A stretch of 64,000 nucleotides of DNA from assembly GCA_030765125.1 (NCBI GenBank), contig JAVCDD010000180.1, positions 7,033 to 71,032 of the forward strand, read 5' to 3'. Position 1 is the stretch's first letter, and each line of letters begins with the position of its first letter. Positions 1 through 56,884 of the stretch are shown piece by piece. The notes under the pieces are model-generated. The model did not search any database. It saw nothing but the letters and a program-made list of their open reading frames with translations, and was not told where the DNA came from. Both the position numbers and the translations under genes were made by a program. The DNA comes from Candidatus Hatepunaea meridiana (GTDB taxonomy: Bacteria; Electryoneota; AABM5-125-24; Hatepunaeales; Hatepunaeaceae).

Positions 1-3000
1 ATACGGCGCGGGTCGGGATCTTCATCCAGTATTATATCCCCGATATCCTCAATGATTTCAGGTGGATCGTTGACCGGATTGATCACCAACCGGAAGTCCA
101 GATCGGTTGAAGCACCCGGTTCGTCGGTGGCTCGAATGGTAATTTCTACGCCGTCCGGGATATTGTAATTCGGTTCAGGTTCGAAATGCAGTACATTGAA
201 CTGGTCGACCTCCATATTCAACTCTTCTGGAGCGTCGATGACCGAAAAGTTCATTTCGTCTTCTTCTATATCGTAGAACACTTCGTCGAGGTCAGCCACG
301 TCAACCCGGTCAGGGTCTTCGTCAATCCTTATATTTTCAATCTGTTCGACAATCCGCGGTGCATCGTTGATGGCGTTAACGACGACTTCGAAGACGTCTT
401 CCGCCGTTTCTTCACCATCTGAAGCGGTGATCGTAACATCGACGTTCCCGTTCCAATCCGCTTCAGGCTGGACATAGAGCCTGCCCTGTACAATGCGAAT
501 ACTAAGCCCTTCAGCGTCGGACTCCTGGAACTCAAGATCGTCATCATCATCCGGGTCAACGAAGTGATCGTTCAGATCGGCAATTAGCCTTTCACCGTCG
601 TCCTCGTCAAATTCCTGATCGGGGATTTCCTCTACTAATATGGGTGGTTGATTTACGTGACCGACGGTAATATCAACCGTTGCGCGGGTCCTGCGACCTC
701 CCTGGTCACTTACTTCGAAGATCGGGCTGTATTCACCTTCATCATCAAGATCGGTCTGCCAGTTGAATGTGCCCGTGTTATCACCATTATCAGTGAATTC
801 CGCGCCGCGGTCTTCAGTTCCGTCGTCAACCAGCATTAACAGTTCCAGTTCGTCACCTTCAAACTCGATGTCAAAATCGTCAGCGGTCAGAGTGAATTCG
901 ATTTCATCGCCCTCATCAACATTTACCTCATCCAGCGGGTCAACCCAGAAGGGAGGGTCATTGACAGGGGTTATGGTAACCAGGAATACATCGTCAATGC
1001 TGTCATCACGGCGCGGGGAAGAAGAATTTTGGATTTTGGATTTTGAATGTTGAATGTCAGTAGCGTAAGCATTCCCGCTTGCGGAAACCATACACGCTGT
1101 TCGTAGCGCCGACGTCTTAACGGCATTACCGGAATTATAAGATGGTCTGAATACCATTAAGGCTCTACCGCCTTGATCATCGTCTGCTGTTACGGTTACT
1201 TCGAGATCATCACCGTTGAAATTCTCCGGAGCTTCCAACAGCAGCATATTATCATCGTCAATCTCTGCCGTAAGAGGTTCATCCGCTTCAACAGAGAATG
1301 ACAGATCATCGTCATCCGGGTCCTCGAATACCTCATCCAATACTGCGACTTCAAACTGACCGAAGTCCTCGGGTACACGCATATCCGCAATCGGGCTGAC
1401 TACCCGAGGTGGCTGGTTGATGTTGTTAACGGTGATATTAACCGTCAGATCATCGGTTCCATCATCTGTGTCGGTTACGCGGAAGACAGGGGTATAAGGA
1501 TCATCACGACTATCATCAGCGCCAGGCGTCCAGGTAAATTCTGCCGTGCCGTCGTCGTTATCAGCAAATTCCCATCCGTCAGGCAATTCACCTTCGTCGA
1601 ATACCGACCAGACCAGATCGTTGACATCATCTTCAACATCACTTGCCTGGAAGACGATATGGAGTTCTTCCTCTTCAGTAACATCAACGTCAATCTCATC
1701 GCCTAAAGCCTCGCCCTGATCGTCTTCGATAACAGGATCATCGTTAATCGAAAGGACGTTGATCGTGAATTCATCGGTAATTGATTCGTCTCTTCGAGGA
1801 GGAGAAGAATGTAGGATGAATTTTGAATGTTGAATGTTGAATGTTGAATGTTGATTATTGATTCGGGCGGCGATCATAATTCGCTGTCCCCAACTGTCCT
1901 CGGCTTCGATAATCACCTCTGATTCACCGAAGTAGTTCGGATCTGGTTCTACGGACAGGATGTGTGTTTCAATATCAATATTAGCGTTCAATTCTTGAAT
2001 CTCATTAGCTTCGATGATGTCAAACTCTAAATCATCACCATCCGGATCATCGAAAACATCGTCCAGGTCGGCGATTTCGATTACACCGGCGTCCTCGTCA
2101 ATATCTATATCGTCAATCGGATTTACAACTTCCGGAGGACGGTTGAAGTTGCCGACGGCGATGGTGATCTCCAGATCGACATCTTCCTCACCATCGGATA
2201 CCGTGAAGATTGGCGTATATTCACCTTCGTCTTCGAACGTTGTCTGCCAGGTAAAGCTTGCCGTACCGTGCTCGTTATCATTGAGTTCCGCTTCATCCGG
2301 CAGACCACCGCGGTCGCTGAATTCGATGGTCAGATCGTTGTTGTTGTCCACGTCATCCTGGGCAATAAGTTCGAAACGGGCAACGTTTCCTTCGTTTACC
2401 TCGTAACGATTGTCTTCAGGATAGCTCTCCCAGACCGGTGGATCGTTGAGCGGATTAACGGTAACAGTGAATTCATCGGATACGGTCTCGTCGCGGCGGG
2501 GTGGAGGGTTGAAATAGGGGGACAGTATACCTATTTCTGTTAATGGACCATCGTTCTTTTCAAGAGCACTCATGAAATAGGTATACTGTCCCCCTATTTC
2601 TGCGAGGCTTCGAGATGGCTGCACATTAACCATCAAACGCCCACCGTTCTCCTCATCATCTGCTGTCACGGTTACGATTAGATTCTCACCGTAAAAATCA
2701 TCCTCCGGTCTCAACGTCAGGATATTCTCATCGCTGATTTCCAGATTCAGTTCTTCAGTACCTTCCACCGAGAAAGTAAGATCGACGCCGTTCGGATCTA
2801 CGAAAATTTCATCCAGGTCGGCTACCTCCAACAGACCGGAATCTTCGTCGATTTCGACATCGTCAATCGGATTTACAACTTCGGGAGGATCGTTGATGGC
2901 TATGCCGGCGATATCAACCGTCAATTCAGCGTTGTCAGGATCGTTGGAGCTAATTGTTATTACGTCGCGGAACACACCGGCGTCTTCGGGAGCGAAGGTT

Positions 3001-6000
3001 ACAGTCAATTCATAGTTGTCTTCGGATTCAATAGTAAGTTCTTCGGCAAAGTCAAAACTGAAGTCCTCACCATCGGAAGTTATTTCGAATATTGTCAGGT
3101 CTCCATTGCCTTCGTTGCTTATGGTCAATATCAGTTCTTCGCTCTCGTGAATTGAAACGTTGCCAAAGTCCAGAACATTGGGGGATATGACAATTGCAGG
3201 ATGCGGGACAAAGTCTGTTACGTCAATGATTACCAAACCATTCTCACCGTCGGCGACGTATGCCATATCTCCCACGATCTGAACCCGTTTGGATAAGCCG
3301 TCTGTGTTATGGGCAGCAATCTCGCTCATATCTTCGGGGTCGGACACGTCGATAATTCCCAAGCCTTCCTCCCCGTCACAAACAAAGGCACTATTGCCTC
3401 GTACATCGATGCCCGTCGCTTCACCTTCGGTATCAAACGAGCCGACTTCAGCCGGATTTTCAGGATCGGATACATCGACCACAATAAGTCCATCATTCCA
3501 TTGTGCTACATAGGCGTAATCCCCGACGATAACGACATCCCAGGCTTGACCCGGAGTATCAAAGGATCCAATCTCATCCGGGTCCTCAGGATTGGAAACA
3601 TCGATAATACGAAGACCGCCTCCAGCAGCAGCTAAATATGCATAGTTCCCGTTAACGTCGACGCCTCGTGAATTACCCGGTGTTTCGACTGTGCTGATTT
3701 CATCAGGGTTCTCAGGGTCGGAAATGTCAATTATACTAAGTGCACTACTCCCTTGGCTCTCATCTGCTACATAGGCATAATCGCCCTCAACGCAGACATC
3801 CCAGGCATACATTTGCCACCTTTCGAGTGCGCCAACCTCTTCAGGGTTCTCAGGATCGGAAATATCGATTATGCGAAGCCCACTTCCGAAGTCCGCTACA
3901 TAAGCATAGTTTCCGATTACGAAGACCGCGCGAGATGTCCCTGGAGTATTGTAGAATCCGATTTCATCTGGGTTCTCCGGATCGGTTACGTCGATCATGC
4001 GAAGACCGCTGTTTCCATCTGCAACATATGCAAAGTCGTTTACAACAAAAATCCCCTGGGCATCTCCCGGTGTGTCGTAGGAGCCTACCTCGTCAATCTG
4101 CGGCTCCCGTCCTGTGCCGGTCAGGTCAACGGTCAGTTCATCGTTATTGGGATCGTCAGATGAAATGGTCATTGTGGCGGTGAAATCACCGGTTTCTTCA
4201 GGTATAAAGGAAACGATTAACTCGAAACTGCCTTCCGGTTCGATAACTAACTCGTCCTCGAAGTTGCTGCTGAAATAATTTTCATCAATTGAAATATCGG
4301 ATACGGTCAGGTCGGCGTTGCCTTCGTTGCCAATAGTGAGAATCAGATCACTCCGCTGGTGGACTGCCACTCCGCCGAAGTCCAGTGATGCCGGTGTTAC
4401 AGTAATACCTGCTTCCGGTTCTTGATGGAAGTAAAAAGCGCCCATATCCGCCTGTGTTTCATCAGGATCGTCCGGCGCGTCCGGATCACCGGAGTCGATG
4501 CAGGGGCTGTTGCGGGTCAGGGAATAATCATCATTGTCTATGTCCGCGAACAATGGATCGGAATCAATGTTCCCCGCTCCGGCGTATCCACCTTGAATAT
4601 CGGAGTAGGCGATGGTTAAACCAGCAGGAGTAGCTCCCGGTTGGTTACCCCAGAAGATCGAGTTCACGATTTGAGCGGAGGAGTTATCATAAGTATGAAT
4701 TCCACCATTGCCGGTCTCGCCGATGTTGCCGGTTATAGTTACGTTTATCAAAGTGGGATCGCTGTCGTGTGTGCTGTAGATAGCTCCACCCCAACGACGG
4801 GCGTTATTGCCCTGTATCAACAGATGATCCAGCGTCGGGGCAGCGTCATTGATGTATATTCCTCCGCCGTAGTTGGAATTTCCATTGCGGATAGTGAAGC
4901 CCATCAAGACCGCATCTACTCCAATTCCATCGCGCAAAGTAACCACACTGCCACCGGCGTTGCCGTCTATGATGGTCGATTCTATATAAGCCTGATCGCC
5001 GGTAGTCAATAACAGGCTGGCAACGACTATCTCCTTACCAATGAAGTTGATGCGTTCAGAATAGGTTCCGGAATGAACAAGCACGGTGTCACCGTTCTCG
5101 ACGGCGTTGATAGCCGCCTGGATGGTTCCATAGTCATCCGGGACGTTGAACAGATGCCTGCCGGGGATACCAATTCCGGTCAGTTCGATGGTGGTTACCC
5201 TTTCGTCAGGATCGTCCGAAATGAGGGTCATAAAGGCTTCAAAATCACCGATGTCGTCAGGTGTGAAGGTAACAGGCAGAGACGCCTGCCCTTCCGGTTG
5301 GATGACAATGGCGTTCTCGAAAGTCGGTACGAATGTCTCCGATCCGCGGATGGTAACTTCCGAGACGGTAAGATCGGCGGCGCCCTCGTTGCGGATAGTC
5401 AGGATCAGTTCTTCGCTGTCATCTATACTGACCTCGCCGAATTCCAGGATTTCCGGCTCAACGGCAATATCCGGAGCCACACCTGAACCGGTCAAGGTGA
5501 TTGTTATTTCATCCTCTTCAGGGTCGTTGGATGCTATGGTTATTATTCCCTCAAAATCGGCGACAGCATCCGGTGAGAAGGTGACGATCAGGTCGGTGTT
5601 GTCGTCGGGTTCAATATTGATTGCATCTTCAAAATCACTGTTGAAGTTGTCACCTTCAATTGTCACTTCGGATACGGTAAGAGGACCTTCGCCTTCGTTG
5701 CCGATGGTTAAATTCATCCGGGCATTATCATCGATTACAACTTCACCGAAGTCAAGATTGTACGTTGAAACTGTAATTGCCGGGTGCGGCATAAAGTCGG
5801 TCACGTTCAGGATGCGCAGTCCGCTGGCTCCATCAGCAACATAAGCGTGAGTTCCGATCACTGAAACATCGTAAGCCTCGTCAGGCGTGTTATAAGATGC
5901 GGTTTCACCAATATTTCCCAAGTCGGAAATGTCTATTACCTGCAGTCCACTCTCCATATCCGCAACGTAGGCGAATCTTCCCAAAACCGTTACGGCAACG

Positions 6001-9000
6001 GCGCGATCTGGCGTGTCAAGTTCACCGAGTTCTTCAATATTTTCGGGGTCGGATATATCGAGGATATGTAAACCACTCTCGTTGTCTGTAACGTAGGCGA
6101 TAGATTCGATGATGAATATTTCCGTTGCAATGTCGGGAGTATCGTAGCGTCCCGTTTCTTCGATATTCTCAGGATCGGAAATGTTCAATACTAACAATCC
6201 ATTAGCGCCGTCTGCTACGTAAGCATATTCACCAATGACTGTTACAGCGTGCGCCAATCCCTCTGTATTAAAGGATCCAACCTCGCTCGGATGCGCCCTG
6301 TTTGATATATTGACCACCCTCAGACCGCTCTCCATATCTGCTATATAAGCGATTGTGCCGACAACAGCGACATCAACGGCATTTCCGGGAGTGTCGAATT
6401 CACCTGTTGGATTGGGGTCTCCGGGATCAAAGACGTCTATGACTTGTAAGCCGTTTTCATCGGCGGCTACGAAAGCGTAGTCTTCCGACACAACAACGCT
6501 CATTGCGGTTCCGATATCACCGGCTGATGCGACCTCGTCAGGGTTCTCAGGGTCGGTTATGTCTATTACTCTTAAGCCTCCGTCACCATCTGCAACGAAA
6601 GCGAAATCTTCTATGACGGTAACTCCGTAAGCTGTTCCATCGGTGTCATAGTTTCCTACTTCGTCGATGTCCGGTTCGCGTCCGGCGCCGGATAACTGAA
6701 CAATTATTTCACCGTTTTCGGGATCGTTTGAGGTGATGGTTAATGTGCCTTCGAAATCACCTGCTTCTTGGGGGGCGAAGGTGACAGACAGGAATGTCTG
6801 TCCTACCGGGTCGATGACAATGGGGTCTTCGAAGCTGCTACTGAACCAGACTCCTTCAACGGTTACATCGGATACGGTTAAAGGACCGTCGCCTTCGTTG
6901 CTGATGGTGAGTCTTTGATCAATACTGCGTTCTATCTGTATAGCGCCGAAGTCCAGTTGTTCCGGTTCAACGACTATTATTGGAACTACGCCTGTGCCGG
7001 TTAATGCTATGGCTATTACCTCTTCATCCGGATCATCAGAGGATATGGTCAGTGTTGCTTCAAAATCACCTGATTCCTGTGGAGCGAAAGTAACGGTCAG
7101 ATCGAATTCCTCATCCGGTTGGATGACGAACGCTTCGTCGAAGTCGCTGCTGAAGTAATTCCCTTCAATTGCGATGTCAGAGACGTTCAATTCAACCAAA
7201 CCATCATTGCTTAATGTAAGCGTCAGATCAGCGCTCTCGCCTCCTGACACCTGACCGAAGTTCAATTCATTCGGATTAACCATTAGATTCGGTTCTTGCG
7301 CCTGGTGGTAGTAGAGTGCGCCCATATCGGCGCGGGTTTCGTCCGGGTCTTGATCGGCGTTGGGATCACCGGTGTCGACGCAGGGGCTGTTGCGCAAGAT
7401 TTGGTAGTCGCTGTTGTCTGCATCGGCAAATAAGGGATCTTCCTCGATGTTGCCTGCACCGGCATAGCTGCCTTCAATATCTGAGAAGGTGATCGTCATA
7501 CCGTTCTGCAGATCAGGCGGTTCGTTGCCCCATATAATAGAATTAATCACCTGAGCACTCGCTCCACCGCCGCCGATGCCAATAGCAGCGTTGTCGCTGT
7601 TTGCAGTGTTACCGGAGATGGTTACGTTGACGAGAATGGGAATGGAACCGCTGGTGGCGTATAGCCCACCGCCGCGTCCACTGGCGACGTTGTCGACTAT
7701 AGCGAGGTGATCGAGCGTGGGCGTGGTCTGATCGCCGTTGCAATAGATACCACCGCCCCAATCGGTGTCGGCATTTCTAACGGTAAAGCCGGTCAGGATT
7801 GCCGCTTCCGTTTCACCGTTGCGGAAGACGACCGTACTCCTGCCGTTTGCGCCGCCGTCAATTATGGTCGATTCGATGTATTCAGCCTCACCTGTGGTCA
7901 GGTACAGACTGCCGACGGTTACGTCTATGCCGTTGAAGTTGACGTTCTCTTCGTAGGTGCCGGGTTGAACCAGCACGATGTCACCGGCTATGGATACGTC
8001 GATTGCTTCCTGGATGGTTTCATAGTCATCCGGCACGTTGACGGTGCGCGCTTCGGTCTCTATACCGGTGCCACTCAAATCAACGGTTACTTCTCCTTCA
8101 TCGGGATCGTCGCTGGTTATGGTCAATACAGCTTGCAGATCGCCTGTTTCACCGGGCAAGAAGGTTACATTAACTTCAGAACTTTCGTCCGGTTGGATGA
8201 CAATGGGGTTTAAAAAGTCGCTGCTGTAGTAGGCGCCTGCAATCGTTATATCGGAGACGGTCAGTTCGATATTGCCTTCGTTAGAGATAGTTATGGCTAA
8301 CTGGGACGACCTGCCCATTTCAGTTTCAGGGAAGGCGAGGGCTTCGGGATCAACGGCGATGTCAGGTGTAAGTCCCGATCCGGTTAAGGGGATGTTTATC
8401 TCACCCTCATCGGGATCATTGGACGTTATGGTCAGCGTTCCTTCGAAATCACCGGTTTCATTCGGCTGGAAGTTTACGTTGAACTGCCGGTTGCCGTCCG
8501 GTGCAATTACGAATTCCTCCTCAAAGTCCGAGGAGAAATATTGACCTTCGATGGAAATATCCGAAACAGTAAGATCGGAATTTCCATCATTGGTGATTAT
8601 CAATGGCAGAGTGGATATTTGTCCCACCAGGCAGTCGCCAAATGGGAAGGAATTGCGGTTAACGGTAATATCCGGCGCCACGCCTGAACCGCTTAGCGCA
8701 ACCTCAACCTCCGGATCGTCCGGATCATCGGAAAGTATAGTCAGGGTTGCATCAAAATCGTTCACCTCTTCCGGCGCGAACGTAACGGTCAGCTCAAAGT
8801 CCTCAAACGGTTGGATGACGATTTCTTCATCAAAATCGGTCAGGAATGTCTGCGCTCCCCGGATTGAAATATCCGAAATGGTCAATTCCCAGTTGCCATC
8901 GTTGCTGATGGTTAACGTCAGGTCTTCAGTTTCACCGGTTACAACCTCACCGAAGTCGAACGCTTCGTCTGAAAGGGTGATTTCGGGGTATTGGACGAAG

Positions 9001-12000
9001 TCGGAGACGTCGAGGATTAATAAACCGTTATTCCCATCAGCCACATATGCATAGTTTCCTACAACAGAAACATCCCAAGAATGTTGAGTTCGGTGATTAC
9101 CAACCTCATCAGGATTCTCAGGATCTGAAACATCTATTAAACGTAGACTGCTTTGACCGGCGGGAGTAAAGCATGCAACATAAGCTATGTTACCTACAAC
9201 AGTTAAGTCTCGAGCATAATCACGTGTATCTTGAGATCCAACTTCGACCAATTCATCTGGGTTAGAAATATCAATAATTCTTAGACCTTCTGTATAATCT
9301 GCTACATAAGCATAGTTTTCTATGACTGAAACACCCAGAGCTGCACCTGGAGTATCATATATTCCTAATCCTCCAAGGTTACGAGCATTAATCAATATTA
9401 AACCTGTCTGATTATCTGCAACATAAGCGATCTCATCAACTATCACAACATCCCGTGCGATTTGCGGCGTGTTAAATGAACCGGTTAATCTTGGATCTTC
9501 AGGGTCGGATATGTTAATAGCTTGCAAACCGCTACGTCCATCAGCTATGTAAACATAATCTCCGCTGACCGCAATACCTTCTGCCCAATCAGGAGTATCA
9601 CAGCTTCCTATTTCATCAGGTTCCTCAGGATTAGACACATCAATAATACGGAGACCGCTCTCGTAATCCGCTACAAATGCCAAATTATCCGAAACCACCA
9701 CATCATAGGCATTTCCTGGAGTTTCACAGAAACCTATCTCATCTGGATTCTCTGGATCAGAGATATCTATTATCCGTAGACCCCCTGCATTATCTGCTAA
9801 ATAGGCAATATCCCCGACAATATCTATACCAAATGTTACACCATTAGTATTATAATGCCCCACTTCCGGTATCGCCGGTTCCCTGCCGACTCCCACCAAT
9901 GCAACATCCACTTCCCCATTATCCGGGTCGTCGGAAGTTATGGTCAGTGTCCCCTCGAAGTTGTTCTCGCTGTCCGGTGTGAACCGAACGGGTAGTTCGA
10001 AGGTGGCGTCCGGTTCGACGATCATCTCTTCATCGATATCCTCAAAGATACTGCTGAAGTTGTCGTGTCCGATTGATATATCGGATATGGTCAGGTCGCC
10101 GTCACCGTCGTTGCCGATGGTCAGGATGAGCTCGACGGTCTGGTCGATTACGACCTCGCCGAAGTTCAGCGATTCGGGATCATGCGTGAGGATAGGCGCA
10201 ACGCCCAGTCCGCTTAAGTTCACATCCAATTCTCCATTATCCGGATCATCGGATGTTATGGTCAGCGTTGCCTGCAGGTCTCCGGTCGCGTCAGGTGCAA
10301 AGGTTACGGTCAGTTCATAGGGCTCGTCCGGTTCGATGACGACCTCACCGTCGAAGTCGCTGGTGAAGTAGTCACCCGCGATTGATATGTCGGAAACGGT
10401 CAGAGGCGCGCGTCCCTCGTTGTTATCAATAGTGAGAATCATATCTGTCTCGTGACCGACTACCGTGTTGGGGAAGACAAGCTCTGCCGGTGTTACAGCG
10501 ATAACGGGAGCCGCTTCCTGGAAGAAGTAGAGGGCGCCCATATCGGCGCGCGTGGTGTCGGGGTCTTCGGGAGCGTCGGGATCGGCTGCGTCAACGCAGG
10601 GGCTGTCCTCAGTGATGTAGAAGTCGTTGTTGTCTGTGTCAGCGAAAATGGGATCGGAATCAAGGTTGTCTACTCCAGCGTAACCGCCCTCGATGTCGCA
10701 GTATGCAACGGTCAATCCGTTCGGCATTCCGGCGGGTTGGTTGCCCCAGACGATTGAGTTTCCGATAGTGGCTGAGGCGCCTGCAAAGATATTAATAGCG
10801 CCGACCTCTTCGTTTGCCGTGTTGCCGTAAAGGGTTATAAAGTTCAGATCAGGATTGGCGTTGTTGGTGGCGTAGATACCTCCACCGCGGCTGGTGGAGC
10901 TGTTTCCGTAGATTACCAGATGATCCAGCGTCGGGCTCGCGTCGTTGATATAGAGCCCACCGCCGAAGTCGGTTGAGCCGTTGCGAATGGTGAAGCCTAT
11001 CAGTTCCGCTTCGTCTGTCTCACCGTTGCGGAAGGCGACTACACTACGCCCGTTGTCGCCGCCGTCGATTATGGTTGAGGCTATGTCATCCGGATCGTCG
11101 CTCTCGATATATTGGCTGGCAACCGTGATGTTTTTGCCGCGGAAATTGATGTTCTCATTATAAACACCGGGGTCGACCAGAACGCGGTCGATGTCAATGG
11201 CTTCGTCAATGGCTGCCTGGATGGTCTCGAAGTCATCAGGGACGTTGTATTCGCGGGGCTGTGCTTCGATGCCGGTTCCTGACAGGGCAACAGCAAGCTC
11301 ACCGTTGTCGGGATCGTCTGAGGTGATGGTCATAGTGGCTTCGTGGTCACCGGTCTCGGTGGGGGAGAAAACGACAGACAGGAATGTCTGTCCTACCGGT
11401 TCTATGATTATTTCGTCTGTAAAGTCGCTGCTGAAATAATCCCCTTCAAAGGTTACGTCTGTAATGTACAGGTCTGTATCGCCGGTGTTGCTGATGGTTA
11501 TGACAGACAAGGATGTCCGTCCCACCTCAGTATCAGGGAATCCAATGGCTTCGGGGTCTATGGTGATTTCGGGGTATTCTACGATGCCGCCGGTAACTTC
11601 GGAACAGTTGAAGATGTAAAGCCCTTCATCCTCATCGGTGATATAGGCGTAATTGCCGGATACATACAAGCCGATAGCGTAGCCTGGAGTGTCGTGGAAA
11701 CCAATCTCTTCCGGTTCGGCAGGGTTTGAAACGTCTATCAAGCGCAATCCCTCGTCACCATCGGCAACATAAGCGAAATCATGCGCGACAAAGACGCTTT
11801 CGGATGAGCCGGGAGTGTTTACAAAGCCGACCTCTTCCGGTTCTGCGGGGTTTGATACGTTTATAATGCGAAGTCCACTGCCTGAAGCGGCGACATAAGC
11901 ATAGTCACCGGCTGCGAAAACTCCATAGGCACGACTCGGCATTTCGAGATTGCTCACTTCATCCGGATTTTCCGGGTCGGACACGTCGATTATGCGCAGT

Positions 12001-15000
12001 CCACCGGCTTGATCTGCAAGATAAGCGTAGTCACCTGAAACGTAAACTGAAAAAGCTTGACCGGGTGTGTCGAACGCTCCAATCTCATCGGGATCATCGG
12101 GGTTGGAGACATCAATTATACGCAGACCGCTGGCGCCGTCTGCAACGTAGGCAAGATTGTCTTTGTAATAAACAGCATACGCGGCACCCGGGGTGTCGAA
12201 GGTTCCGACCTCATTGGGATTTTCGGGGTCTGAGATGTCGATTATGCGCAGTCCGCTGGCAGCGTCCGCAACGTAAGCATACGAACCAGCAACGTCTATG
12301 CCGGTTGCTTCACCGGGGGTGTCGTAGGAACCGACAGCCTGCGGTTGACCGGGGTCGGATACGTCGACAATCTGCATACCTTCCCAGTAGTCAGCTATGT
12401 AAGCCAGCCCTCGCGAGACGTAGACGCCTTCGGACATTCCGGGCGTTTCGTAATGACCTACCTGCCGGATCTGCGGACCGGTTCCGATGCCGGTTAAATC
12501 AACTTCAATCTCCTCGTTTTGAGGGTCGTTGGAGGTGATGGTCAGTGTGCCAGCGTAATCGATTGTTTCTACAGGTGTAAATGTTACGGTCTGTTCGATG
12601 CTGTTGTCGGGTTCTATGGTGATTTCGTCCTCAAATACGGTTTGGAATACTTCGTCACCCTGAATGGTAATATCAGTGATGATAAGATCCTCATTTCCTA
12701 CATTGGTGATGGTGAGGATAAGATCGCGGTCAATGTCAATGGCAGACTCGCCGAAGTCGAGCGCACCCGGTGAGATCCTGATAGTCGGAGGCTGGGGTTG
12801 CTGTTGGTAGTAGAATGCGCCCATATCGGCACGTGTTTCATCGCTATCCTGGGGCGAGTTCGGATCACCGACGTCTATACAGGGGGAGTCTTCGGTCAGT
12901 TGGAAATCATCATTGTCAAAGTCGGCAAATAAGGGATCCTGATCGATGTTGCCGGCGCCGTTATAACCACCCTGAACGTCAGAATAGGTAATGGTTTGTC
13001 CACCAGGAAGCGCTGCCGGGGTGTTTCCCCAGAATATCGAGTTGACTGCCTGTGTTTGAGCGCCACCCCCTCCAACACCTATTCCGCCGTTACCGCCATC
13101 GGCGTCGTTGTTGGTGAATGTTATGTTATTCAGGAGCGGTTGCGCACCAGTGGTGACATAGATGCCTGCACCTCGTCCGCTGACGTGATTGCCTGTTATC
13201 AATAGATGATGCAATGTAGGATTAGCGCCACGGATGTAAGAGCCGCCGCCGAAGTCGGTATCTGCATTGCGGATTGTGAAGCCTGCGAGGACAGCTTCGT
13301 TTGTCTCACCGTTGCGGAAGACCGTTACGCTTCTGCCGTTGGCGTCACCGTCGATAATGGTCGAAGCGATGTAATCAGGATCACCGGTTGTGATATAGAG
13401 GCTGCCAACGACGATATTCTTACCAATAAAGTCAATGATCTCAGTATAGGTTTCAGGTTGAACCAGTACTGTGTCACCGTCAGCAGCGTTGTCGATTGCT
13501 TCCTGGATGGTGTCGTAGTCGTCCGGAACGTTGATTATAAAATCTCGTCCCGATCCGGAAAGAGCTACTGCGAGATCCTCGTTCTCAGGATCGTCAGATG
13601 CTATGGTAAGTGTTCCAACGAAATCATCAATGTCATCCGGTGAGAAGGTTACGGTTAATTCGCGACTTTCATTCGGTTGGATGACGATCTCATTCTCGAA
13701 ATCGCTGATGAAGTTGTCCCCTTCAATAGTTATATCGGATATAGTCAGATCACCGAAACCGGTGTTGCTGATAGTGAGTATCAGGTCTGCTTCGTCGTCA
13801 ATCGGAACAGCACCGAAGTCCAGGGCATCCGGAGATACGTCAATAGCGGGGATCGCTTCGACACCGATTCCGGTCAGGTTCACATCCAGGTTCTCGTTAT
13901 CCGGATCGTTAGATGTGATTACAAGCGTGCCGGCGAGATCACCGGTATCATCCGGCTGGAAGGTGACAGTTACATCAGAAGTGTTGCCCGGTTCGATGAC
14001 CACTTCATTCTCGAAATCTGAACTGAATATGTCTCCTTCAATAGTAATATCCGAGACATTCAGGTTTTCACGTCCTCTATTTCGGATGGTTAGAATCAGA
14101 TCGGCGCTCTGGTCGACTACTACCTCAGCAAAGTCAAGCGCTTCAGGAGAAACAACGATGCTCGGTCCCTCTGCCTGGAATAACGGGAATGTTCCCATAT
14201 CGGCGCGTGTGCCGTCCGGGTCTTCGGGTGCATCAGGATTGCCTGTATCTTTACAGGGGCTGTCATCGGTCAGGTGAAAATCATCATTGTCGGGATCAAC
14301 GAACAATGGATCTGTATCTATGTTGCCTCTGCCGTTATAACCGCCCTGGATATCAGAGAATGTGATCGTCTGGTTGGCGGGAATATCTGGTGGGGCATTA
14401 TCCCAGAATATGGAGTTTACAATAGTAACCACTGATCCACCGAAAACATCCAGAACACCGTTGTTTTGCTCAGAATCATTGCGGGTCAGGGTAACGTTTG
14501 TCATCGTAGGACTACCGCCGCCATAGGCAATTATCGCACCGCCCCATCTTACGGTATGGTTATCGGTGATCAATAAATGATCCAGTATCGGGCTGCCGCC
14601 ATTACAGAGTATTCCCCCTCCGAAATCAGCGGCGCCGTTGCGAATTGTAAAACCGGACAGGATGGAATTCACTGTCTCACCGTTGGCAAAGGTTACAACG
14701 CTAGTGTTATTAGCATCGCCATCGATTATGGTTGATTCAACGTAATCCGCATCACCTGTAGTAATAAACAGGCTGCCTACAATGATTTCCTTGCCGTTAA
14801 AGTTGATGTTTTCTGTGTATGTCCCGGGCGCTACCAAAACAGTATCCGTGTCGATGGCATTATCAATAGCTTCCTGTATAGTATCGAAATCATCAGGCAC
14901 ATCGTGTACATGATCGAGCGGTTCGATGCCAGTTCCAGTTAAAGCGACGTCAACTTCTTCTTCATTCGGGTCATCGGATGTAATAGTGAGCGTTCCCTGG

Positions 15001-18000
15001 TAATCTTCTATATCATCAGGTGCAAACGTTACCGTAACATCATAACTGTTGTCCGGTTCGATTACGATTTCATCTTCTTCGAAGTCGTGCGTGAAAACAT
15101 CACCTTCAATAGTGATGTCAGTTACGGTCAGATCGGTACGACCATTATTCCTGATTGTGAGCGACAGTTCAGCGCTCAATTCAAGCTCAACCTCTCCAAA
15201 GATAAGTTGAGCCGGTATTACCGATATGTTTGGCTCTTCCGGCAGCTCGAAGTAGAAGGCGCCCATATCATTGCGTGTTTCGTCAGGATCCTGTGGTGAA
15301 TTCGGATCACCTGCATTTATACAAGGGGAGTCTTCAGTTAATTGGAAATCATCATTATCAAAGTCGGCAAATAAGGGATCGGAATCAAGATTCCCTGCTC
15401 CGGCGTATCCACCCTGAACATCGGAATATGTAATAGTCTGACCGCCAGGAAGCGCTGCAGGTGTGTTTCCCCAGAATATCGAGTTGATTACCTGGGTTTG
15501 AGCGCCGCCCCCACCGACTCCGATTCCACCGTTGGCACCGTCGGCATCGTTGTTGGTGAATGTTATGTTATTCAGGAGCGGTTGTGCTCCGGTAGTGGCA
15601 TAAATCCCTGCGCCGCGTCCGCTGACATGGTTGGCGGTTATTAATAGGTGGTGCAATGTTGGACTGGCGTCACGGATGTATGAGCCGCCTCCGAAGTCGG
15701 TATCTGCATTGCGAATTGTGAAACCGGCAAGGACGGCTTCGTTTGTCTCGCCGTTGCGGAAGACCGTTACGCTTCTGCCGTTGGCGTCACCATCAATAAT
15801 GGTCGAAGCGATATAGTCGGGATCACCTGTGGTGATATACAAACTGCCGACAACGATGTTCTTGCCAATAAAGTCAATGATTTCAGTATAGGTCTCAGGT
15901 TGAACCAGCACCGTGTCGCCGTCAACAGCGTTGTCGATTGCTTCCTGAATGGTATCGTAGTCATCCGGAACATTGATTATGTAATCCCGTCCCGATCCTG
16001 AAAGAGCAACAGCGAGATCCTCGTTCTCCGGATCGTTAGATGCTATGGTTAACGTTCCATTAAAATCACCAACGTCATCCGGTGAGAAGGTCACATTTAA
16101 TTCATAGCTGTCATCCGGTTCGATTACAACCTCATTCTCGAAATCGCTGATGAAATTGTCACCTTCAATGGTTACATCGGATATAGTCAGATCACCGAAG
16201 CCGGTGTTGCTGATGGTTAGTATCAAGCCTGCCTCGTCGTCAACCGGAATTGCTCCAAAGTCCAGCGCATCCGGCAATACTACTATTGCAGGAATCGCTT
16301 CGACACCGATTCCGGTCAGGTTCACCTCCAGATCTTCATTGTCCGGATCGTTGGATGTGATTACAAGCGTACCAGCGAAATCTCCGGTAGCATTCGGCTG
16401 GAAGGTAACGATTACTTCAGAAGTGTTGCCTGGCTCGATGACTACTGCATTCTCAAAATTGCTGCGGAAGTTATCCCCCTCAATTGTTATATCGGATACC
16501 CTTAAGTCTTCACGTCCTCTATTTCGGATGGTGAGCGTCAGATCAGCGCCCTGGTCGACTACTACCTCAGCAAAGTCGAGAGCTTCAGGGGAAACAACGA
16601 TACTTGGTCCTTCAACCTGGAACAGCGGGAATGTTCCCATATCAGCGCGTGTGCCGTCCGGGTCTTCGGGTGCATCAGGATTGCCTGTGTCTTTACAGGG
16701 ACTGTCATCGGTCAGGTGAAAATCATCATTGTCGGGGTCAACGAACAATGGGTCTGTATCTATATTGCCTCTGCCGTTATAACCGCCCTGAATGTCGGAG
16801 AAGGTGATTGTTTGGTTAGCCGGTATATCAGGTGGGTCGTTATCCCAGAATATGGAGTTTACAATAGTAACCACTGATCCACCGAAAACATCCAGAGTGC
16901 CGCTATTTTGCTCGGAATCATTACCGGTCAGGGTAACGTTTCTCATCGTAGGACTACCGCCGCCATACGCAATTATCGCACCGCCCCATCTGACGGAATG
17001 GTTGTCGGTGATCAATAAATGATCCAGCATCGGGCTACCGCCATTACAGAGTATTCCCGCTCCGAAGTTAGCACCGCCATTGCGGATAGTAAAACCTGAC
17101 AGGACGGAATTCACTGTCTCACCGTTGGCAAAAGTTACTACGCTCGTGATATTCCCATCACCGTCAATAATTGTTGATTCGACGAAATCTGCATTACCTG
17201 TTGTAATAAATTGACTGCCGACGACGATTTCCTTGCCGCCAAAGTTGATGTTTTCAGTATAAGTTCCGGGCGCTACCAACACAGTATCCGTATCGATGGC
17301 GTTATCGATGGCTTCCTGAATGGTATCGTAGTCGTCGGGAACGTTGATCCTGAAACTTCTCCCGATTCCAGAAAGAGCGACAGCCAACTCTTCGTTCTCC
17401 GGATCATCTGATGCAATAGTAAGTGTCCCATTAAAATCACCTACGTCATCAGGAGAGAATGTAACCGTTAATTCATAACTGTCATCCGGTTCGATTACAA
17501 CCTCATTCTCAAAGTCGCTGCTGAAGTTATCGCCTTCAAAGGTAACGTCCGAAACGGTCAGGTCACCGAAACCCACGTTGGCGATAGTGAGTATCAGATC
17601 CGCATCGCCGTTAACCACTACCGCACCGAAGTCCAAAGCATCTGGAAATGGATCAATAGAAGGGATAGCTTCCACGCCGATTCCTGTCAGATTAACCTCC
17701 AATTCCTCGTTATCCGGATCATTGGATGTAATTACAAGCGTTCCGTTAAAATCACCTGTATCATCAGGCTGGAAAGTGACAGTTACTTCATAAGTGTTGC
17801 CCGGCTCGATGTCCACTTCATTATCAAAATCGCTTCTGAAGATGTTCCCCTCAATCGTTATATCAGATACATTTAAGTCTTCGCGTCCCCTGTTTCTGAT
17901 AGTGAGCGTTAGATCGGCACTCTGGTCGACTACAACCTCAGCAAAGTCAAGCGCTTCAGGAGAAACAACGATACTTGGTCCCTCTGCCTGGAATAGTGGG

Positions 18001-19862
18001 AATGTTCCCATATCGGCGCGTGTGCCGTCCGGGTCTTCTGGGGAGTCAGGATCACCTGTATCGATACAGGGGCTGTCGTCAGTCAGGTGATAATCATTAT
18101 TGTCGGGATCGGCAAATAAAGGATCCGTGTCGATGTTGCCTGCACCTGCATACCCACCCTGGACATCGGAGTAGGTAATCGTTTGATTGGCTGGTATATC
18201 GGGTGGATCGTTATCCCAGAAAATCGAGTTAACCATATTAACAACTGCACCGCTGAAAATGCTCAAAGCTCCGTTGCCTTGATCGGCGCTATTGCCTGTT
18301 AAGGTGATGTTTCGTATAGTAGGGCGGGCGTTGGCGTAAGCAATTATTCCTCCGCCTCGATTGACGGCGTTGTTGCCGGTTATCAGGAGATGATCCAGCG
18401 TCGGGGCAGAACCATTACAGAGTATTCCCGCTCCGAAGTTAGCCCTGCCATTGAAGATAGTAAAACCTGACAGGATGGAGTTCACTGTCTCACCGTTGGC
18501 AAAGGTTACTACACTCGTGTTATTCGCATCGCCGTCAATAATAGTTGATTCAACATAATCCGCATCACCCGTTGTAATAAAAAGGCTGCCGACAAGGATT
18601 TCCTTGCCGCTAAAGTTAATATTCTCCGTGTAAGTTCCGGGAGCAACCAGTACAGTATCCGTATCAAGCGCATTATCAATAGCTTCTTGTATAGTATCAT
18701 AATCATCCGGCACGTCTATTCTGTGATCGCGGGGTTCTACGCCCGTTCCTGTTAAAGCAACGTCAAGTTCTTCCTGGTCCGGGTCGTCGGAGGTAATAAT
18801 TAGCGTTCCCTGATAATCCTGCGTTTCCTCAGGGGCAAAGGTTACAATTACATCATAACTGTTATCCGGGTCGATAACTACTTCATCTTCTTCAAAGTCA
18901 TGCGTGAAACCATCTTCATGAATGGTAATATCCATTACAGTCAAGTCGGTGCGTCCAATATTGCTTATAGTAAGAGTTAATTCAGCGTTTTGTTCAAGCT
19001 CAACATCCCCAAAGTTAAGCTCAGCCGGTGACACGGCAATATTCGGTTCTTCCGGCTGATCGAAGTAGAACGCGCCCATATCGGCGCGTGTCTCGTCGGG
19101 ATCATCGTCTGAATTGGGGTCTCCGGTGTCAATACAGGGGGAGTTCTCTGTGATGTAAAAATCACCTTCACCAGGATCGACAAACAACGGATCCTGGTTG
19201 ATGTTTCCATTACCGGCATAACCACCCTGGATGTCGGAATATGTAACGGTCATCCCATTGGGTCTTCCGGCGGGTTGGTTGCCATAGGATATGCAGTTGA
19301 CCATATTAGCCGAGGCGCCGCCGTAGACATGAATTCCCCCATTGCCGCCTTCAGCCGTATTGTTGGCAATCGTAATGTTGGTCAAACTGGGAAGAGCGTC
19401 GCTGGTGCAATAGATGCCACCTCCCCACCTGGCAGCGTGGTTTCCGGTAATGAGCAGATGATCCAGCGTCGGTCGAGCGTTGTTAATGTATAGTCCACCA
19501 CCGTAATTTGCCGAACCGTTTGTGATCGTAAGACCAATCAACCGCGCTTCCGCGCCTACACCACCGCGAATTGAAACAATAGTACCACCACCACCGCCAT
19601 CGATGATAGTATTTTCGATGTGCTCCGGATCGTTTTCGTTCAGGTAGAGACTGGCAACGGTGATTTCCTTATCCAGGAAATTGATGTTTTCAACGTATCT
19701 ACCGGGCTGAATCAGCACGACATCGCCGTCTTCAGCTTCGATTATCGCTTCCTGAATGGTTTCAAAGTCGTCAGGAACGTTTATCACCTCAGCGTAAACG
19801 GTTGATACACCTGTGATTATTGCAAGTATAAAAGTAATAATTAGAGGAAATTTAGGACGCAT
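1..19862 (-). CDS. Giant secreted multidomain surface protein; N-terminus complete, C-terminus beyond the left window edge (>=6620 codons)
   Basis: Absent from the ORF track, which appears to list only ORFs with a stop in the window. The ATG is at 19862-19860 on the minus strand, followed by the signal-like peptide [24 protein letters not shown]. I hand-translated 1-2700 codon by codon and read through the rest. The nine V-P-D-D module starts (first bases 19778, 18713, 17342, 15971, 14900, 13529, 11243, 8036, 5144) and the RRD codons at 2498 and 1796 all share one phase (coordinate mod 3 = 2). A stop in that phase would have produced a listed ORF starting at 19862, and none is listed. Confidence 0.85.
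   Translation of the reverse strand, partial: [6620 protein letters not shown]
1026..1060 (-). repeat. Heptanucleotide tandem repeat (TGGATTT)2(TGAATGT)2, in frame in the giant ORF
   Basis: Units attttgg (1026-1032, 1033-1039), attttga (1040-1046), atgttga (1047-1053) and atgtcag (1054-1060). Verified translation is ...[22 protein letters not shown]. Confidence 0.8.
1817..1865 (-). repeat. Heptanucleotide tandem repeat (TGAATGT)4 plus degenerate flanking units, in frame in the giant ORF
   Basis: Perfect units lie at 1824-1830, 1831-1837, 1838-1844 and 1845-1851. Degenerate units are tgaattt (1817-1823), tgattat (1852-1858) and tgattcg (1859-1865). The stretch translates on the minus strand as [28 protein letters not shown]. 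Confidence 0.85.
2511..2600 (-). mobile_element. 90-bp palindromic element (family A, GGGGACAGTATACC core) lying in frame inside the giant ORF
   Basis: The perfect 27-bp arms are gaaatagggggacagtatacctatttc (2511-2537) and its reverse complement (2574-2600). The arms are identical to the intergenic copy at 23858-23944. The 36-nt loop resembles that copy's loop in inverted orientation. Codon-by-codon translation gives [31 protein letters not shown] with no stop. Confidence 0.75.
3215..4110 (-). repeat. LVIVD-repeat beta-propeller block 4
   Basis: Repeats such as [25 protein letters not shown] and [25 protein letters not shown]. Confidence 0.7.
5795..6685 (-). repeat. LVIVD-repeat beta-propeller block 3
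   Basis: Repeats such as [24 protein letters not shown] and [23 protein letters not shown]. Confidence 0.7.
6783..6809 (-). repeat. REP-like 27-mer (GTAG head + GACAGACA/TGTCTGTC hairpin) inside the giant ORF
   Basis: The plus strand reads gacagacaggaatgtctgtcctaccgg. The minus strand reads ccGGTAGGACAGACATTCCTGTCTGTC and codes PVGQTFLSV within an Ig-like domain. It is identical to 11373-11399 and near-identical to intergenic copies at 35287, 35349 and 56611. Confidence 0.8.
9000..9885 (-). repeat. LVIVD-repeat beta-propeller block 2
   Basis: Repeats such as [25 protein letters not shown] and [25 protein letters not shown]. Confidence 0.7.
11373..11399 (-). repeat. Second identical copy of the REP-like 27-mer inside the giant ORF
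   Basis: Same 27-mer as 6783-6809, coding [15 protein letters not shown]. A degenerate relative, gacagacaaggatgtccgtcccacc, lies at 11501-11525. Confidence 0.8.
11600..12475 (-). repeat. LVIVD-repeat beta-propeller block 1
   Basis: Translation shows about 7 repeats of the form AYVAD..[24 protein letters not shown], matching my memory of the PF08309 LVIVD consensus. Confidence 0.7.
12465..17348 (-). repeat. Tandem duplication, two units of 2442 bp (beta-helix + 2 Ig + beta-helix + 1 Ig) inside the giant ORF
   Basis: Module starts 17342/14900 and 15971/13529 are each exactly 2442 bp apart. A 60-nt stretch I compared (16981-17040 vs 14539-14598) matches at 55/60. The antisense shadow ORFs 13531..14277 and 16150..16719 have near-identical translations. 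Confidence 0.8.
17349..18719 (-). repeat. Partial third copy (1371-bp sub-unit: beta-helix + 2 Ig) of the tandem repeat
   Basis: The module start at 18713 lies 1371 bp from 17342. The shadow ORF 17794..18090 is near-identical in translation to the corresponding parts of 16150..16719 and 13531..14277. Confidence 0.7.
19794..19862 (-). other. Predicted signal peptide of the giant ORF
   Basis: Translation [32 protein letters not shown] has a basic N-terminus, a hydrophobic core and a VYA-type cleavage motif. No predictor was run. Confidence 0.55.
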
Positions 19863-20078: not shown

Positions 20079-20317
20079 GATTCCTTGATTCCTGTGAATA
20101 GATTTACCAATAGGTGTGAATCAGATTCGCATTTGAAAGGATAAAAACGTGTTCAGTTTAAACTGTTAGAGGATATGCTTTGAGTTACCAGTAGGAAGAA
20201 ATGATAACTTGAAACAGATAATAATAACCTAATAAGATGTGCAAAAACCTTGCCGGTTTATTCTATCACTGCGTTGAAAGGAAGCGTCGGGAAGGGCAGA
20301 CATTCTTGTCCGTCACG

Positions 20318-20704
20318 TTAATGATCTTTGTGTTTGTAGTGTCTCTTCCCTTGAGCAGAGCTAACGCTTATCTTCAACGTAGAAGTTGTAATCGGAGGAA
20401 CAAGATCGTTTTTTACCTTCTCAACAGCTTCTCTGACTTTCATACCATGACAAGAATAGACTGTCCAGCCGAAGTTGGCACAATTAGTGAAAGCTCCCGG
20501 TCCAATGTTGCCTACGATGATGCGACCTATATTCATACCTTGAAAACTATCCAAGCCGCGGAATGGTTCTTTTTCTCCTCCGCCCCTTATCGCACTAAAT
20601 TCCATCGTTTCAGGATCAACTATCAGATAATAGGATGCGTGACCGAAGCGTTTGTGAATCTTTGCATCTAAGCTTGGTTCGGTTGCGGTTACTAAGTATT
20701 TCAT
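20318..20704 (-). CDS. NifX/NifB-like (dinitrogenase Fe-Mo cofactor biosynthesis domain, PF02579-type) small protein
   Basis: A 128-aa ORF. HKRFGHASYYLIVDPETMEF and RIIVGNIGPGAF fit the HFGxaxxFxixD ... iG.ga pattern of this family. Confidence 0.7.
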   Translation of the reverse strand: MKYLVTATEPSLDAKIHKRFGHASYYLIVDPETMEFSAIRGGGEKEPFRGLDSFQGMNIGRIIVGNIGPGAFTNCANFGWTVYSCHGMKVREAVEKVKNDLVPPITTSTLKISVSSAQGKRHYKHKDH

Positions 20705-23830: not shown

Positions 23831-23857
23831 TATCTTTACTCCTAAGATGGGATTGAT

Positions 23858-23944
23858 AAATAGGGGGACAGTATACCTATTTCATAAATACTCTTTGAAA
23901 TAACGACGGTCAATAAAGAAATAGGTATACTGTCCCCCTATTTC
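23858..23944. repeat. Family A palindromic element, intergenic copy
   Basis: The arms aaatagggggacagtatacctatttc (23858-23883) and gaaataggtatactgtccccctatttc (23918-23944) sit in the 131-bp spacer between the Mrp-NifX stop and the OYE start. Confidence 0.8.
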
Positions 23945-56567: not shown

Positions 56568-56599
56568 GTGGTGTCGTGGTGTCGTGGTGTTGTGGTGTC
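56568..56599. repeat. Octanucleotide tandem repeat (GTGGTGTY)4 just after the 1830-aa gene stop
   Basis: Units are gtggtgtc (56568-56575), gtggtgtc (56576-56583), gtggtgtt (56584-56591) and gtggtgtc (56592-56599). Confidence 0.85.
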
Positions 56600-56610
56600 G
56601 GGATTTAAGG

Positions 56611-56660: not shown

Positions 56661-56884
56661 ATCATCGTGTCAGACAATCCCGAAGTTTCGGGATGACCTA
56701 CTGGAAAGTTTTAATCAAGATGGACACTTTTTAGAAACCAGCAGGCGTTTTGCTTGCTGGTTTTTTTATTAGCTTCTGTTTTATCTGATAAAAATGTCTT
56801 CGCAACTCTGTTTAATTCTTGGTAAGCAGGAGTTTTTTATATTATATTATAGAAACAGACGTTCAAGAACAACCGGAGAATAAA

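What the first reader, a model, noticed from the sequence alone, without database searches (positions are those of the whole stretch)
12465..18719. 2442-bp tandem duplication (two full units plus a 1371-bp partial third) at about 90% identity inside the giant ORF
Module starts are spaced exactly 2442 bp apart (17342/14900 and 15971/13529) and 1371 bp apart (18713/17342). A sampled 60-nt comparison gave 55/60 identity, much higher than between other modules of the gene.

This indicates recent in-gene amplification. It is also a hazard for short-read assembly, so the true copy number may differ.
Basis: seen in the sequence. Interest (0 to 1): 0.5.

Follow-up and report, generated by a model that had tools for sequence, protein, structure and literature searches.

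The report
Old module duplications in giant surface-protein gene
A giant secreted-protein gene of an uncultured Antarctic-lake bacterium enlarged its front end by copying blocks of beta-helix and Ig-like domains, but the copies are old, mosaic and kept by selection, so this is ordinary repeat-protein evolution and not a recent amplification or a likely assembly error.

Summary
The repeat is real but is described too simply. The module starts (18713, 17342, 15971, 14900, 13529) and the 2442- and 1371-bp spacings are exact.

**Where it lies.** The ORF is on the minus strand (19862 down past position 3, at least 6,620 aa). It encodes signal peptide, 9 beta-helix domains, 21 choice-of-anchor-D Ig domains, 4 LVIVD blocks and cadherin-like repeats. 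It is not a PKS or NRPS.

**How similar the copies are.**
- High identity at lag 2442 covers 2,078 of 2,442 bp (12809-14886 vs 15251-17328) at 85.7%, not about 90%.
- The last Ig domain of each unit (I6 vs I9) is only 60% identical, which is background.
- I6 instead pairs with I1 at 76%.
- The "partial third" copy is 78% identical.

**Age and selection.** dS is 0.6-1.1 and dN/dS is 0.05-0.14. The copies are therefore old and under purifying selection.

**History.** Similarity blocks switch at a motif (DPDETRxDMGAFYF) that ends every beta-helix, and the three H-Ig-Ig modules are mosaic. This points to at least two unequal-recombination events plus gene conversion. These events appear to follow the split from the nearest homologue (60% aa identity).

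**Assembly risk.** The longest exact run shared between units is 57 bp, so short-read collapse is unlikely. Copy number could not be checked independently.

Interest is low.

The parts
3..19862 (-). Giant ORF. ATG at 19862; the frame is stop-free from 19904 and runs off the window start. At least 6,620 aa: signal peptide, 9 beta-helix domains, 21 choice-of-anchor-D/ASH Ig-like domains, 4 LVIVD blocks, then Big_9/cadherin-like repeats.
   Evidence: The N-terminus is collinear with P0001, including the signal peptide.
19050..19790 (-). Beta-helix H1 (aa 39-285). It is not amplified, apart from its last ~18 codons, which resemble the end of H4.
18729..19049 (-). Ig-like domain I1 (aa 286-392), the partner of I6 (76% nt identity, dS about 1.4).
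17355..18725 (-). Module A2 = H2-I2-I3 (aa 394-850). It is 78% nt identical to A3 and to A5.
15984..17354 (-). Module A3 = H3-I4-I5 (aa 851-1307), 85% nt and 88% aa identical to A5.
   Evidence: structure model
15237..15983 (-). Beta-helix H4 (aa 1308-1556), 84% nt and 92% aa identical to H6.
15249..15290 (-). Junction motif DPDETRNDMGAFYF at the end of H4. Here similarity switches from H6-like (upstream in the protein) to H1/I1-like (downstream). The same 42-nt motif ends all nine beta-helices. It is the inferred crossover site.
14916..15236 (-). Ig-like domain I6 (aa 1557-1663). It resembles I1 (76%), not I9 (60%).
13542..14912 (-). Module A5 = H5-I7-I8 (aa 1665-2121).
12792..13541 (-). Beta-helix H6 (aa 2122-2371).
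12471..12791 (-). Ig-like domain I9 (aa 2372-2478).
12809..14886 (-). Copy 2 of the high-identity block (H5-I7-I8-H6). It matches 15251-17328 at 85.7% without gaps.
15251..17328 (-). Copy 1 of the high-identity block (H3-I4-I5-H4).
17158..19103 (-). Older block (end of H1, I1, H2, I2, I3, start of H3). It matches 13345-15290 at 77.5% at lag 3813.

Best explanation
**What it is.** The region is the N-terminal, most recently expanded part of a giant secreted multi-domain protein gene. The gene belongs to the uncultured FCB-group bacterium Ca. Hatepunaea meridiana.

**Domain order.** SP-H1-I1-[H2-I2-I3]-[H3-I4-I5]-H4-I6-[H5-I7-I8]-H6-I9, followed by LVIVD blocks. H is a pectin-lyase-like right-handed beta-helix of about 248 aa. 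I is a choice-of-anchor-D/ASH Ig-like domain of about 105 aa.

**How it arose (inferred).** The array grew from a shorter ancestor, most simply H1-I1-H-I-I-H-I9, through at least two in-frame duplications.
- These were made by unequal homologous recombination between the conserved sequences that begin (VPDDYDTIQEAID) and end (DPDETRxDMGAFYF) every beta-helix.
- An older event of 2442 bp copied I1-H2-I2-I3-H into I6-H5-I7-I8-H6.
- A younger event added a further 1371-bp H-I-I module (H3-I4-I5, closest to H5-I7-I8).
- Patches of gene conversion then blurred the relationships.

**What is shown.**
- The copy relationships, the breakpoints and the mosaicism.
- The age of the copies: dS is 0.6-1.1.
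- Strong purifying selection on every copy: dN/dS is 0.05-0.14.

**What is inferred.**
- The order and mechanism of the events.
- The protein's role. The likeliest is a long cell-surface protein exported by the type IX secretion system that binds or processes polymers or other cells. Added beta-helix/Ig modules would lengthen it and multiply its binding units.
For: **Anatomy**
- Minus-strand open frame and domain content.
- Module starts and lags.

**Copy relationships**
- Domain identity matrices give H3/H5 87%, I4/I7 83%, I5/I8 83%, H4/H6 84%, I1/I6 76% and I6/I9 60%. H2 is 78% identical to both H3 and H5.
- There is a clean switch of similarity inside module B4 at the DMGAFYF motif.

**Age and selection**
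- dS and dN values with bootstrap intervals.
- Codon-position identities are 0.94/0.93/0.67.

**Mosaicism**
- Informative sites among A2, A3 and A5 are clustered. There are 177 runs against 224 +/- 8 in shuffles; 0 of 5000 shuffles were as low.

**Lineage-specific grouping**
- Amplified domains group together relative to the collinear homologue P0001 (60% aa identity over 815 aa).

**Fold**
- AlphaFold model of H3-I4-I5: mean pLDDT 83.
- Foldseek best matches for the Ig domains are HYDIN/CFAP and CEP192 ASH domains.

**Secretion context**
- Five neighbouring large genes carry the T9SS C-terminal sorting domain.
- Many homologues carry it too.

**Source**
- Flanking proteins match the Ca. Hatepunaea meridiana MAG exactly.
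Against: - No orthologue spanning the array was found, so the ancestral arrangement and the order of events are not tested. P0001 ends within I3.
- A plain tandem 1371-bp duplication of H2-I2-I3 predicts that H3 is closest to H2, but H3 is closest to H5. This needs either later conversion or a duplication followed by a deletion.
- The dS interval for H4/H6 (0.67-1.31) overlaps those of both proposed events.
- The C-terminus is outside the window, so T9SS export of this protein is unverified.
- Single beta-helix domains fall below Pfam's Beta_helix cut-off.
- Residues 178-247 of the model have low confidence.
- No function has been tested.
Confidence: 0.78

Rival explanations
1. One recent 2442-bp tandem amplification produced two full units and a truncated third, with about 10% divergence since.
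For: The 2442- and 1371-bp spacings are exact, and an 86% identical block exists.
Against: - 364 bp of the unit (I6 vs I9) are at background identity, and I6 is related to I1 instead.
- The third copy is clearly more diverged: 78% identity, dS about 1.1 against 0.6.
- dS of 0.6-0.9 is not recent.
- Informative sites are mosaic.
Confidence: 0.04
2. Assembly artefact. The short-read co-assembler expanded, collapsed or mis-joined repeat units, so the order or number of modules in the contig is not that of any real genome.
For: - The source is a MEGAHIT co-assembly of about 120 metagenomes (PMC9324843).
- No second assembly covers the region.
- Searches with two stretches of the gene found no near-identical fragments in public data.
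Against: - The units differ at about 1 base in 7.
- The longest shared exact run is 57 bp, and only ten runs of 31 bp or more exist.
- The frame stays open through every junction, and junctions fall at domain boundaries.
- Substitutions between copies are overwhelmingly synonymous, as expected for real paralogous coding copies.
- Public contigs of this organism are also short in non-repetitive regions, which points to low coverage and not repeat breakage.
Confidence: 0.06
3. Ancient array kept similar by concerted evolution alone. All six modules predate the split from related lineages. The 76-87% identities then reflect the time since the last gene-conversion event, not the time since duplication.
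For: - Clustered, conflicting informative sites show that exchange between copies has occurred.
- I2, I4 and I7 are equidistant.
- Within-genome grouping of paralogues in trees is what conversion also produces.
Against: - Clean, long collinear blocks (2.08 kb and 1.95 kb) with sharp ends at one motif look like duplication junctions, not scattered conversion tracts.
- H1 and I9, which flank the array and carry the same motifs, have not been homogenised.
Confidence: 0.12

Closest known systems
Internal domain amplification in very long bacterial surface and adhesin proteins (the 'giant genes' literature; recent survey of Omnitrophota long proteins, bioRxiv 10.64898/2026.06.07.730766)
   Same: - In-frame repeats of whole folded domains occur inside a multi-kilobase ORF.
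- Repeated Pfam domains are the rule in long proteins.
- Nucleotide tandems have mostly decayed through synonymous change while the architecture persists.
   Different: - The unit here is a composite 814-aa, five-domain block (beta-helix plus Ig domains), not a single ~100-aa domain.
- It is still recognisable at 86% nt identity.
- It has a traceable chimeric junction.
Choice-of-anchor D (NF012200) / ASH-HYDIN Ig-like plus LVIVD (PF08309) plus right-handed beta-helix T9SS cargo proteins of FCB-group MAGs (Calditrichota, Zixibacteria, Electryoneota)
   Same: - The domain vocabulary is the same.
- P0001 (NQU05243.1) is collinear with the N-terminus at 60% aa identity.
- Smaller paralogues from the same MAG carry the T9SS sorting domain.
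   Different: - Homologues found are mostly 0.8-1.4 kaa with one to a few modules, whereas this ORF has 9 + 21 + 4 modules.
- Its C-terminus, and therefore its sorting signal, is outside the window.
Pectin-lyase-fold polysaccharide lyases, epimerases and phage tailspikes (6kfn alginate lyase, 1ru4 Pel9A, AlgE4/AlgG)
   Different: - Sequence identity is only 9-16%.
- No catalytic residues were examined.
- The domain is shorter (about 175 well-modelled residues), and nine copies are strung along one chain.
Module duplication in modular PKS/NRPS megasynthases
   Same: Kilobase-scale 'modules' repeat in a giant ORF and arise by recombination between conserved motifs.
   Different: No PKS or NRPS domain is present. 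This is a secreted structural or binding protein.

Membership tests
Simple recent tandem duplication (two full units plus a partial unit) | Head-to-tail copies at a constant lag | tested here: met
   Lag 2442 block of 2,078 bp at 85.7%; module starts are exactly 2442 and 1371 bp apart.
Simple recent tandem duplication (two full units plus a partial unit) | Similarity extends evenly over the whole unit | tested here: not met
   I6 vs I9 is 56-60% identical (background). I6 pairs with I1.
Simple recent tandem duplication (two full units plus a partial unit) | Little synonymous divergence between copies | tested here: not met
   dS is 0.61-0.92 for the best pairs and about 1.1 for the third copy.
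Choice-of-anchor D domain-containing protein (NCBIfam NF012200) | HMM score above the curated cut-off | tested here: met
   349 and 518 bits against a cut-off of 45; 9 + 12 matched stretches.
LVIVD repeat protein (Pfam PF08309) | HMM score above the gathering cut-off | tested here: met
   813 bits, 26 stretches, all downstream of the duplicated region.
Right-handed parallel beta-helix (pectin-lyase-like) domain | Sequence match to Pfam Beta_helix/NosD/DUF1565 above the cut-off | tested here: inconclusive
   - Single domains: PF13229 scores 21.9 bits against 25.9, and H3 alone has no hit.
- The NosD N-terminal model gives partial matches.
Right-handed parallel beta-helix (pectin-lyase-like) domain | Beta-helix fold | tested here: met
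Type IX secretion system cargo | C-terminal Por_Secre_tail sorting domain | not testable with these tools
   - The C-terminus lies beyond the window start.
- Neighbouring genes and homologues have the domain.
- An N-terminal signal peptide is present.
Modular PKS/NRPS | KS/AT/ACP or C/A/T domains | tested here: not met
   No such Pfam or NCBIfam hits over 6,634 aa.
Polysaccharide lyase (catalytic) | Conserved catalytic and Ca-binding residues of a PL family | not tested
   Only fold similarity at 9-16% identity.

The most novel reading that the evidence does not exclude
The mosaic pattern may reflect continuing recombination among the beta-helix/Ig modules. If so, module number and composition at the exposed N-terminal end of this surface protein would vary between cells or strains. 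That would be a length- or epitope-variation mechanism for a T9SS surface protein in an uncultured phylum, and the contig would be only one of several coexisting forms.
Probability: 0.08. Interest if true: 0.4.

Novelty: new member of a known kind. Interest (0 to 1): 0.15.

Why it matters
- It shows step by step how a protein of more than 6,600 aa was built. Whole multi-domain blocks were copied by recombination at a short motif shared by every beta-helix, and each copy was then kept under strong constraint.
- That constraint is also good evidence that the giant ORF is a real, translated gene.
- Practically, the repeat is diverged enough that the contig is probably assembled correctly.
- It does not reveal a new mechanism or a new kind of system.

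Tried and rejected
- **Tandem Repeats Finder** does not report the repeat, because its longest period is 500.
- **Scans of genome contigs and metagenome contigs** with the 814-aa unit found no relative above 53% aa identity. Orthologues could therefore not date the duplication or give a second assembly.
- **A second protein search** with H6-I9-LVIVD found no fragment spanning the end of the array.
- **Exact-protein look-ups of flanking genes** found only two short contigs, both ending at window position 19408, before the repeat.
  - I considered a repeat-induced break there and rejected it. No exact repeat of 20 nt or more occurs at that position.
  - Other contigs of that sample are equally short.
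- **PKS/NRPS reading of 'modules'** was rejected.
- **Rfam** found nothing in the window.
- **First tree script** timed out and was rewritten.
- **First two queries** used the wrong frame.

Full report
**Where the feature lies**

The finding sits in a stop-free frame on the minus strand that runs from 19904 to the window start (6,634 codons). The likely start is the ATG at 19862. It is followed by a signal-peptide-like sequence (MRPKFPLIITFILAIITGVSTVYA), and a sigma-70-like promoter match lies at 19962-19934.

Pfam and NCBIfam scans show what the ORF encodes. A jackhmmer pass placed 21 Ig-like domains.
- It is not a PKS or NRPS.
- It is a secreted repeat protein with nine ~248-aa beta-helix domains (H1-H9) and 21 ~105-aa choice-of-anchor-D/ASH Ig-like domains (I1-I21).
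- It also has four LVIVD blocks and C-terminal Big_9/cadherin-like repeats.
- The N-terminal order is SP-H1-I1-H2-I2-I3-H3-I4-I5-H4-I6-H5-I7-I8-H6-I9-LVIVD.

**Checking the observation**

Ungapped identity at lag 2442 is high only for 12809-14886 vs 15251-17328: 2,078 bp at 85.7%. Other in-frame lags give a mean of 28% and a maximum of 38%.

A global alignment of the two 2442-bp units gives 81.5%. Identity is about 86% for the first ~2,100 nt in coding direction and about 56% for the last ~340 nt.

Domain-by-domain nucleotide identities:

| Pair | nt identity |
|---|---|
| H3/H5 | 87% |
| I4/I7 | 83% |
| I5/I8 | 83% |
| H4/H6 | 84% |
| I6/I9 | 60% |
| I1/I6 | 76% |
| H2 vs H3, H2 vs H5 | 78% |
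| I2 vs I4, I7 | 82-83% |
| I3 vs I5, I8 | 74-75% |

Background for non-amplified pairs is 58-66% for H and 50-65% for I.

A further collinear relation exists at lag 3813: 13345-15290 vs 17158-19103 at 77.5%. The repeat is therefore real and far above background. However, it is about 86% identical, not 90%. The two 'full units' share only H-I-I-H, and the third copy is more distant.

**Age and selection**

Nei-Gojobori estimates with bootstrap intervals:

| Comparison | dS | 95% interval |
|---|---|---|
| H3-I4-I5 vs H5-I7-I8 | 0.61 | 0.48-0.75 |
| H4 vs H6 | 0.92 | 0.67-1.31 |
| H2-I2-I3 vs H5-I7-I8 | 1.08 | 0.86-1.37 |
| H2-I2-I3 vs H3-I4-I5 | 1.17 | 0.92-1.60 |
| I1 vs I6 | about 1.4 | 0.78-saturated |

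- dN/dS is 0.05-0.14 throughout.
- Identity by codon position in the best block is 0.94/0.93/0.67.
- The copies are old at synonymous sites. As a rough yardstick from memory, dS near 0.9-1 separates E. coli from Salmonella.
- All copies are under strong purifying selection. This also shows that the giant ORF is a genuine coding sequence.

**Breakpoints and mosaicism**

A three-way comparison of H1-I1, H4-I6 and H6-I9 shows a clean switch.
- H4 is about 85% identical to H6 up to the end of the helix.
- After that point the linker and I6 follow H1/I1 at 72-83%.
- The switch lies in the 42-nt motif encoding DPDETRxDMGAFYF (15249-15290). This motif ends all nine beta-helices.
- The lag-2442 and lag-3813 blocks overlap exactly there.
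- The other end of the 86% block is at the conserved VPDDYDTIQ start of H3/H5.

Among the three H-I-I modules, the informative sites favour H3=H5: 187 sites against 86 and 89 for the other two groupings. The minority sites are clustered, with 177 runs against 224 +/- 8 in shuffles (0 of 5000 shuffles as low). The first ~270 nt and the first Ig domain are equidistant among the three copies. This is the signature of exchange between copies.

**Inferred history**

The simplest account starts from H1-I1-H-I-I-H-I9.
- Unequal recombination between the end motifs of the two helices duplicates 2442 bp (I1-H2-I2-I3-H). This yields H4 (a copy of H6) followed by I6-H5-I7-I8-H6. It fits the dS values of about 0.9-1.4 for those pairs.
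- A later event added a 1371-bp H-I-I module (H3-I4-I5).
- H3-I4-I5 is closest to H5-I7-I8 and not to its neighbour H2-I2-I3. This step therefore needs one of two routes:
  - conversion after a local tandem duplication; or
  - a further 2442-bp unit duplication followed by deletion of one H-I pair.
- The data do not separate these two routes.

**Relatives**

Searches with the 814-aa unit gave no close relative in genome or metagenome contigs (53% aa identity or less). The best protein is P0001 (NQU05243.1, Calditrichota MAG, partial, on a 2.7-kb contig). It is collinear with SP-H1-I1-H2-I2-I3 at 60% identity.

NJ trees give the following groupings:
- (P1_H2,(H2,(H3,H5))) with support 98/100/100
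- (P1_H1,H1) with 95
- (H4,H6) with 100
- (P1_I1,(I1,I6)) with 73/78

The amplification, or the last homogenisation, therefore post-dates the split from that lineage. P0001 ends in I3, so the ancestral arrangement beyond that point is untested. A second search found no fragment covering the end of the array.

**Source and assembly**

The flanking radical-SAM and oxidoreductase proteins are exact matches to MDP8239316.1 and MDP8239317.1. These belong to Ca. Hatepunaea meridiana (phylum Ca. Electryoneota, FCB group) and lie on a 74,618-bp contig. That MAG came from a MEGAHIT v1.1.1 meta-large co-assembly of Ace Lake metagenomes (PMC9324843).

- The longest exact run shared by the units is 57 bp, and only ten runs of 31 bp or more are shared. 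Collapse or mis-joining at large k is therefore unlikely.
- The only other public contigs of this organism (L027, L028) are identical to the window but stop at 19408, upstream of the repeat.
- Contigs of that sample are also short in unique regions, so the stop is probably a matter of coverage.
- Copy number remains unverified by independent data.

**What the protein is like**

An AlphaFold model of H3-I4-I5 has mean pLDDT 83. It shows a right-handed beta-helix (residues 1-175), a poorly modelled choice-of-anchor-Q-like stretch (178-247) and two Ig sandwiches.
- Foldseek and phmmer match the Ig domains to HYDIN, CFAP and CEP192 ASH domains.
- Five neighbouring large genes carry T9SS sorting domains, among them two C25-peptidase-like paralogues. 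Many homologues carry the domain as well.
- By inference, this is a long T9SS-exported surface protein whose beta-helix/Ig modules bind or act on polymers.
- Its own C-terminus is outside the window, and no activity can be assigned.

**Verdict**

This is a real, old, multi-step and mosaic intragenic module amplification in a giant surface-protein gene. Repeat architecture of this kind, with decayed nucleotide tandems, is described as the rule for very long bacterial proteins (bioRxiv 10.64898/2026.06.07.730766). It is an ordinary feature with low interest.

Noticed in passing
window 2511-2600 (inside the giant ORF, minus strand) and 23857-23944 (intergenic): An ~89-nt palindromic element with perfect 27-nt arms (GAAATAGGGGGACAGTATACCTATTTC) occurs twice.
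- One copy lies between two genes. The other sits in frame (90 nt = 30 codons) inside a cadherin-like repeat of the giant ORF.
- The copies are 87.6% identical over 89 nt, loop included.
- The predicted hairpins are -50 and -47 kcal/mol (z about -8).
- There is no Rfam match.
- From memory, it is reminiscent of Rickettsia palindromic elements inserted in coding genes.
   Followed up: partly
window 1817-1861 and about 1024-1057 (giant ORF, minus strand): A heptamer TGAATGT repeated 5.4 times lies inside the coding sequence and is translated as NNQHSTFNIQHSKF.
- A related simple stretch occurs in the next cadherin-like repeat.
- Both lie in odd insert loops just before a PRRD[DE] motif.
- A 7-nt unit is not a multiple of 3, so slippage would shift the frame.
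   Followed up: partly
window 38900-39650 and 46268-47018 (second giant ORF 35641-50094, minus strand): This 4,817-aa T9SS cargo gene holds a dispersed, in-frame internal duplicate of about 750 bp (lag 7368). It is about 94% identical and its longest exact run is 87 bp. It is much younger than the repeat under study and a greater assembly risk.
   Followed up: partly
window 19408: Two public short contigs (ENA ERZ27315452 k141_196848 and JGI 3300025649 Ga0208279_1014975) are 100% identical to the window and both end at exactly 19408, inside H1. No exact repeat of 20 nt or more lies there. The cause is probably shared reads or low coverage.
   Followed up: partly
window 51070-56562 and 56819-62233 (plus strand): Two adjacent ~1,800-aa paralogues carry a C25 (gingipain-like) peptidase domain, a CarboxypepD_reg domain and a T9SS sorting domain. 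Short 8-bp tandem repeats lie at 56568-56600, 57409-57444 and 62482-62544, at or near their ends.
   Followed up: no
window 20237-20704: The public gene call here is a 144-aa plus-strand ORF with no Pfam hit. The overlapping 128-aa minus-strand ORF (20318-20704) looks by eye more like a real protein and is co-oriented with the radical-SAM/SPASM, flavin oxidoreductase and NUBPL + Nitro_FeMo-Co genes upstream of it. I did not scan the 128-aa ORF against any family library.
   Followed up: no
giant ORF, aa 2479-5673 (window about 2900-12470): The rest of the gene is an older super-repeat of H, Ig(1-2), LVIVD block, Ig(1-3), present four times. LVIVD blocks are 40-49% aa identical and H7-H9 are 55-57% aa identical to each other. 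The N-terminal amplification is therefore the latest layer of a hierarchical build-up.
   Followed up: partly
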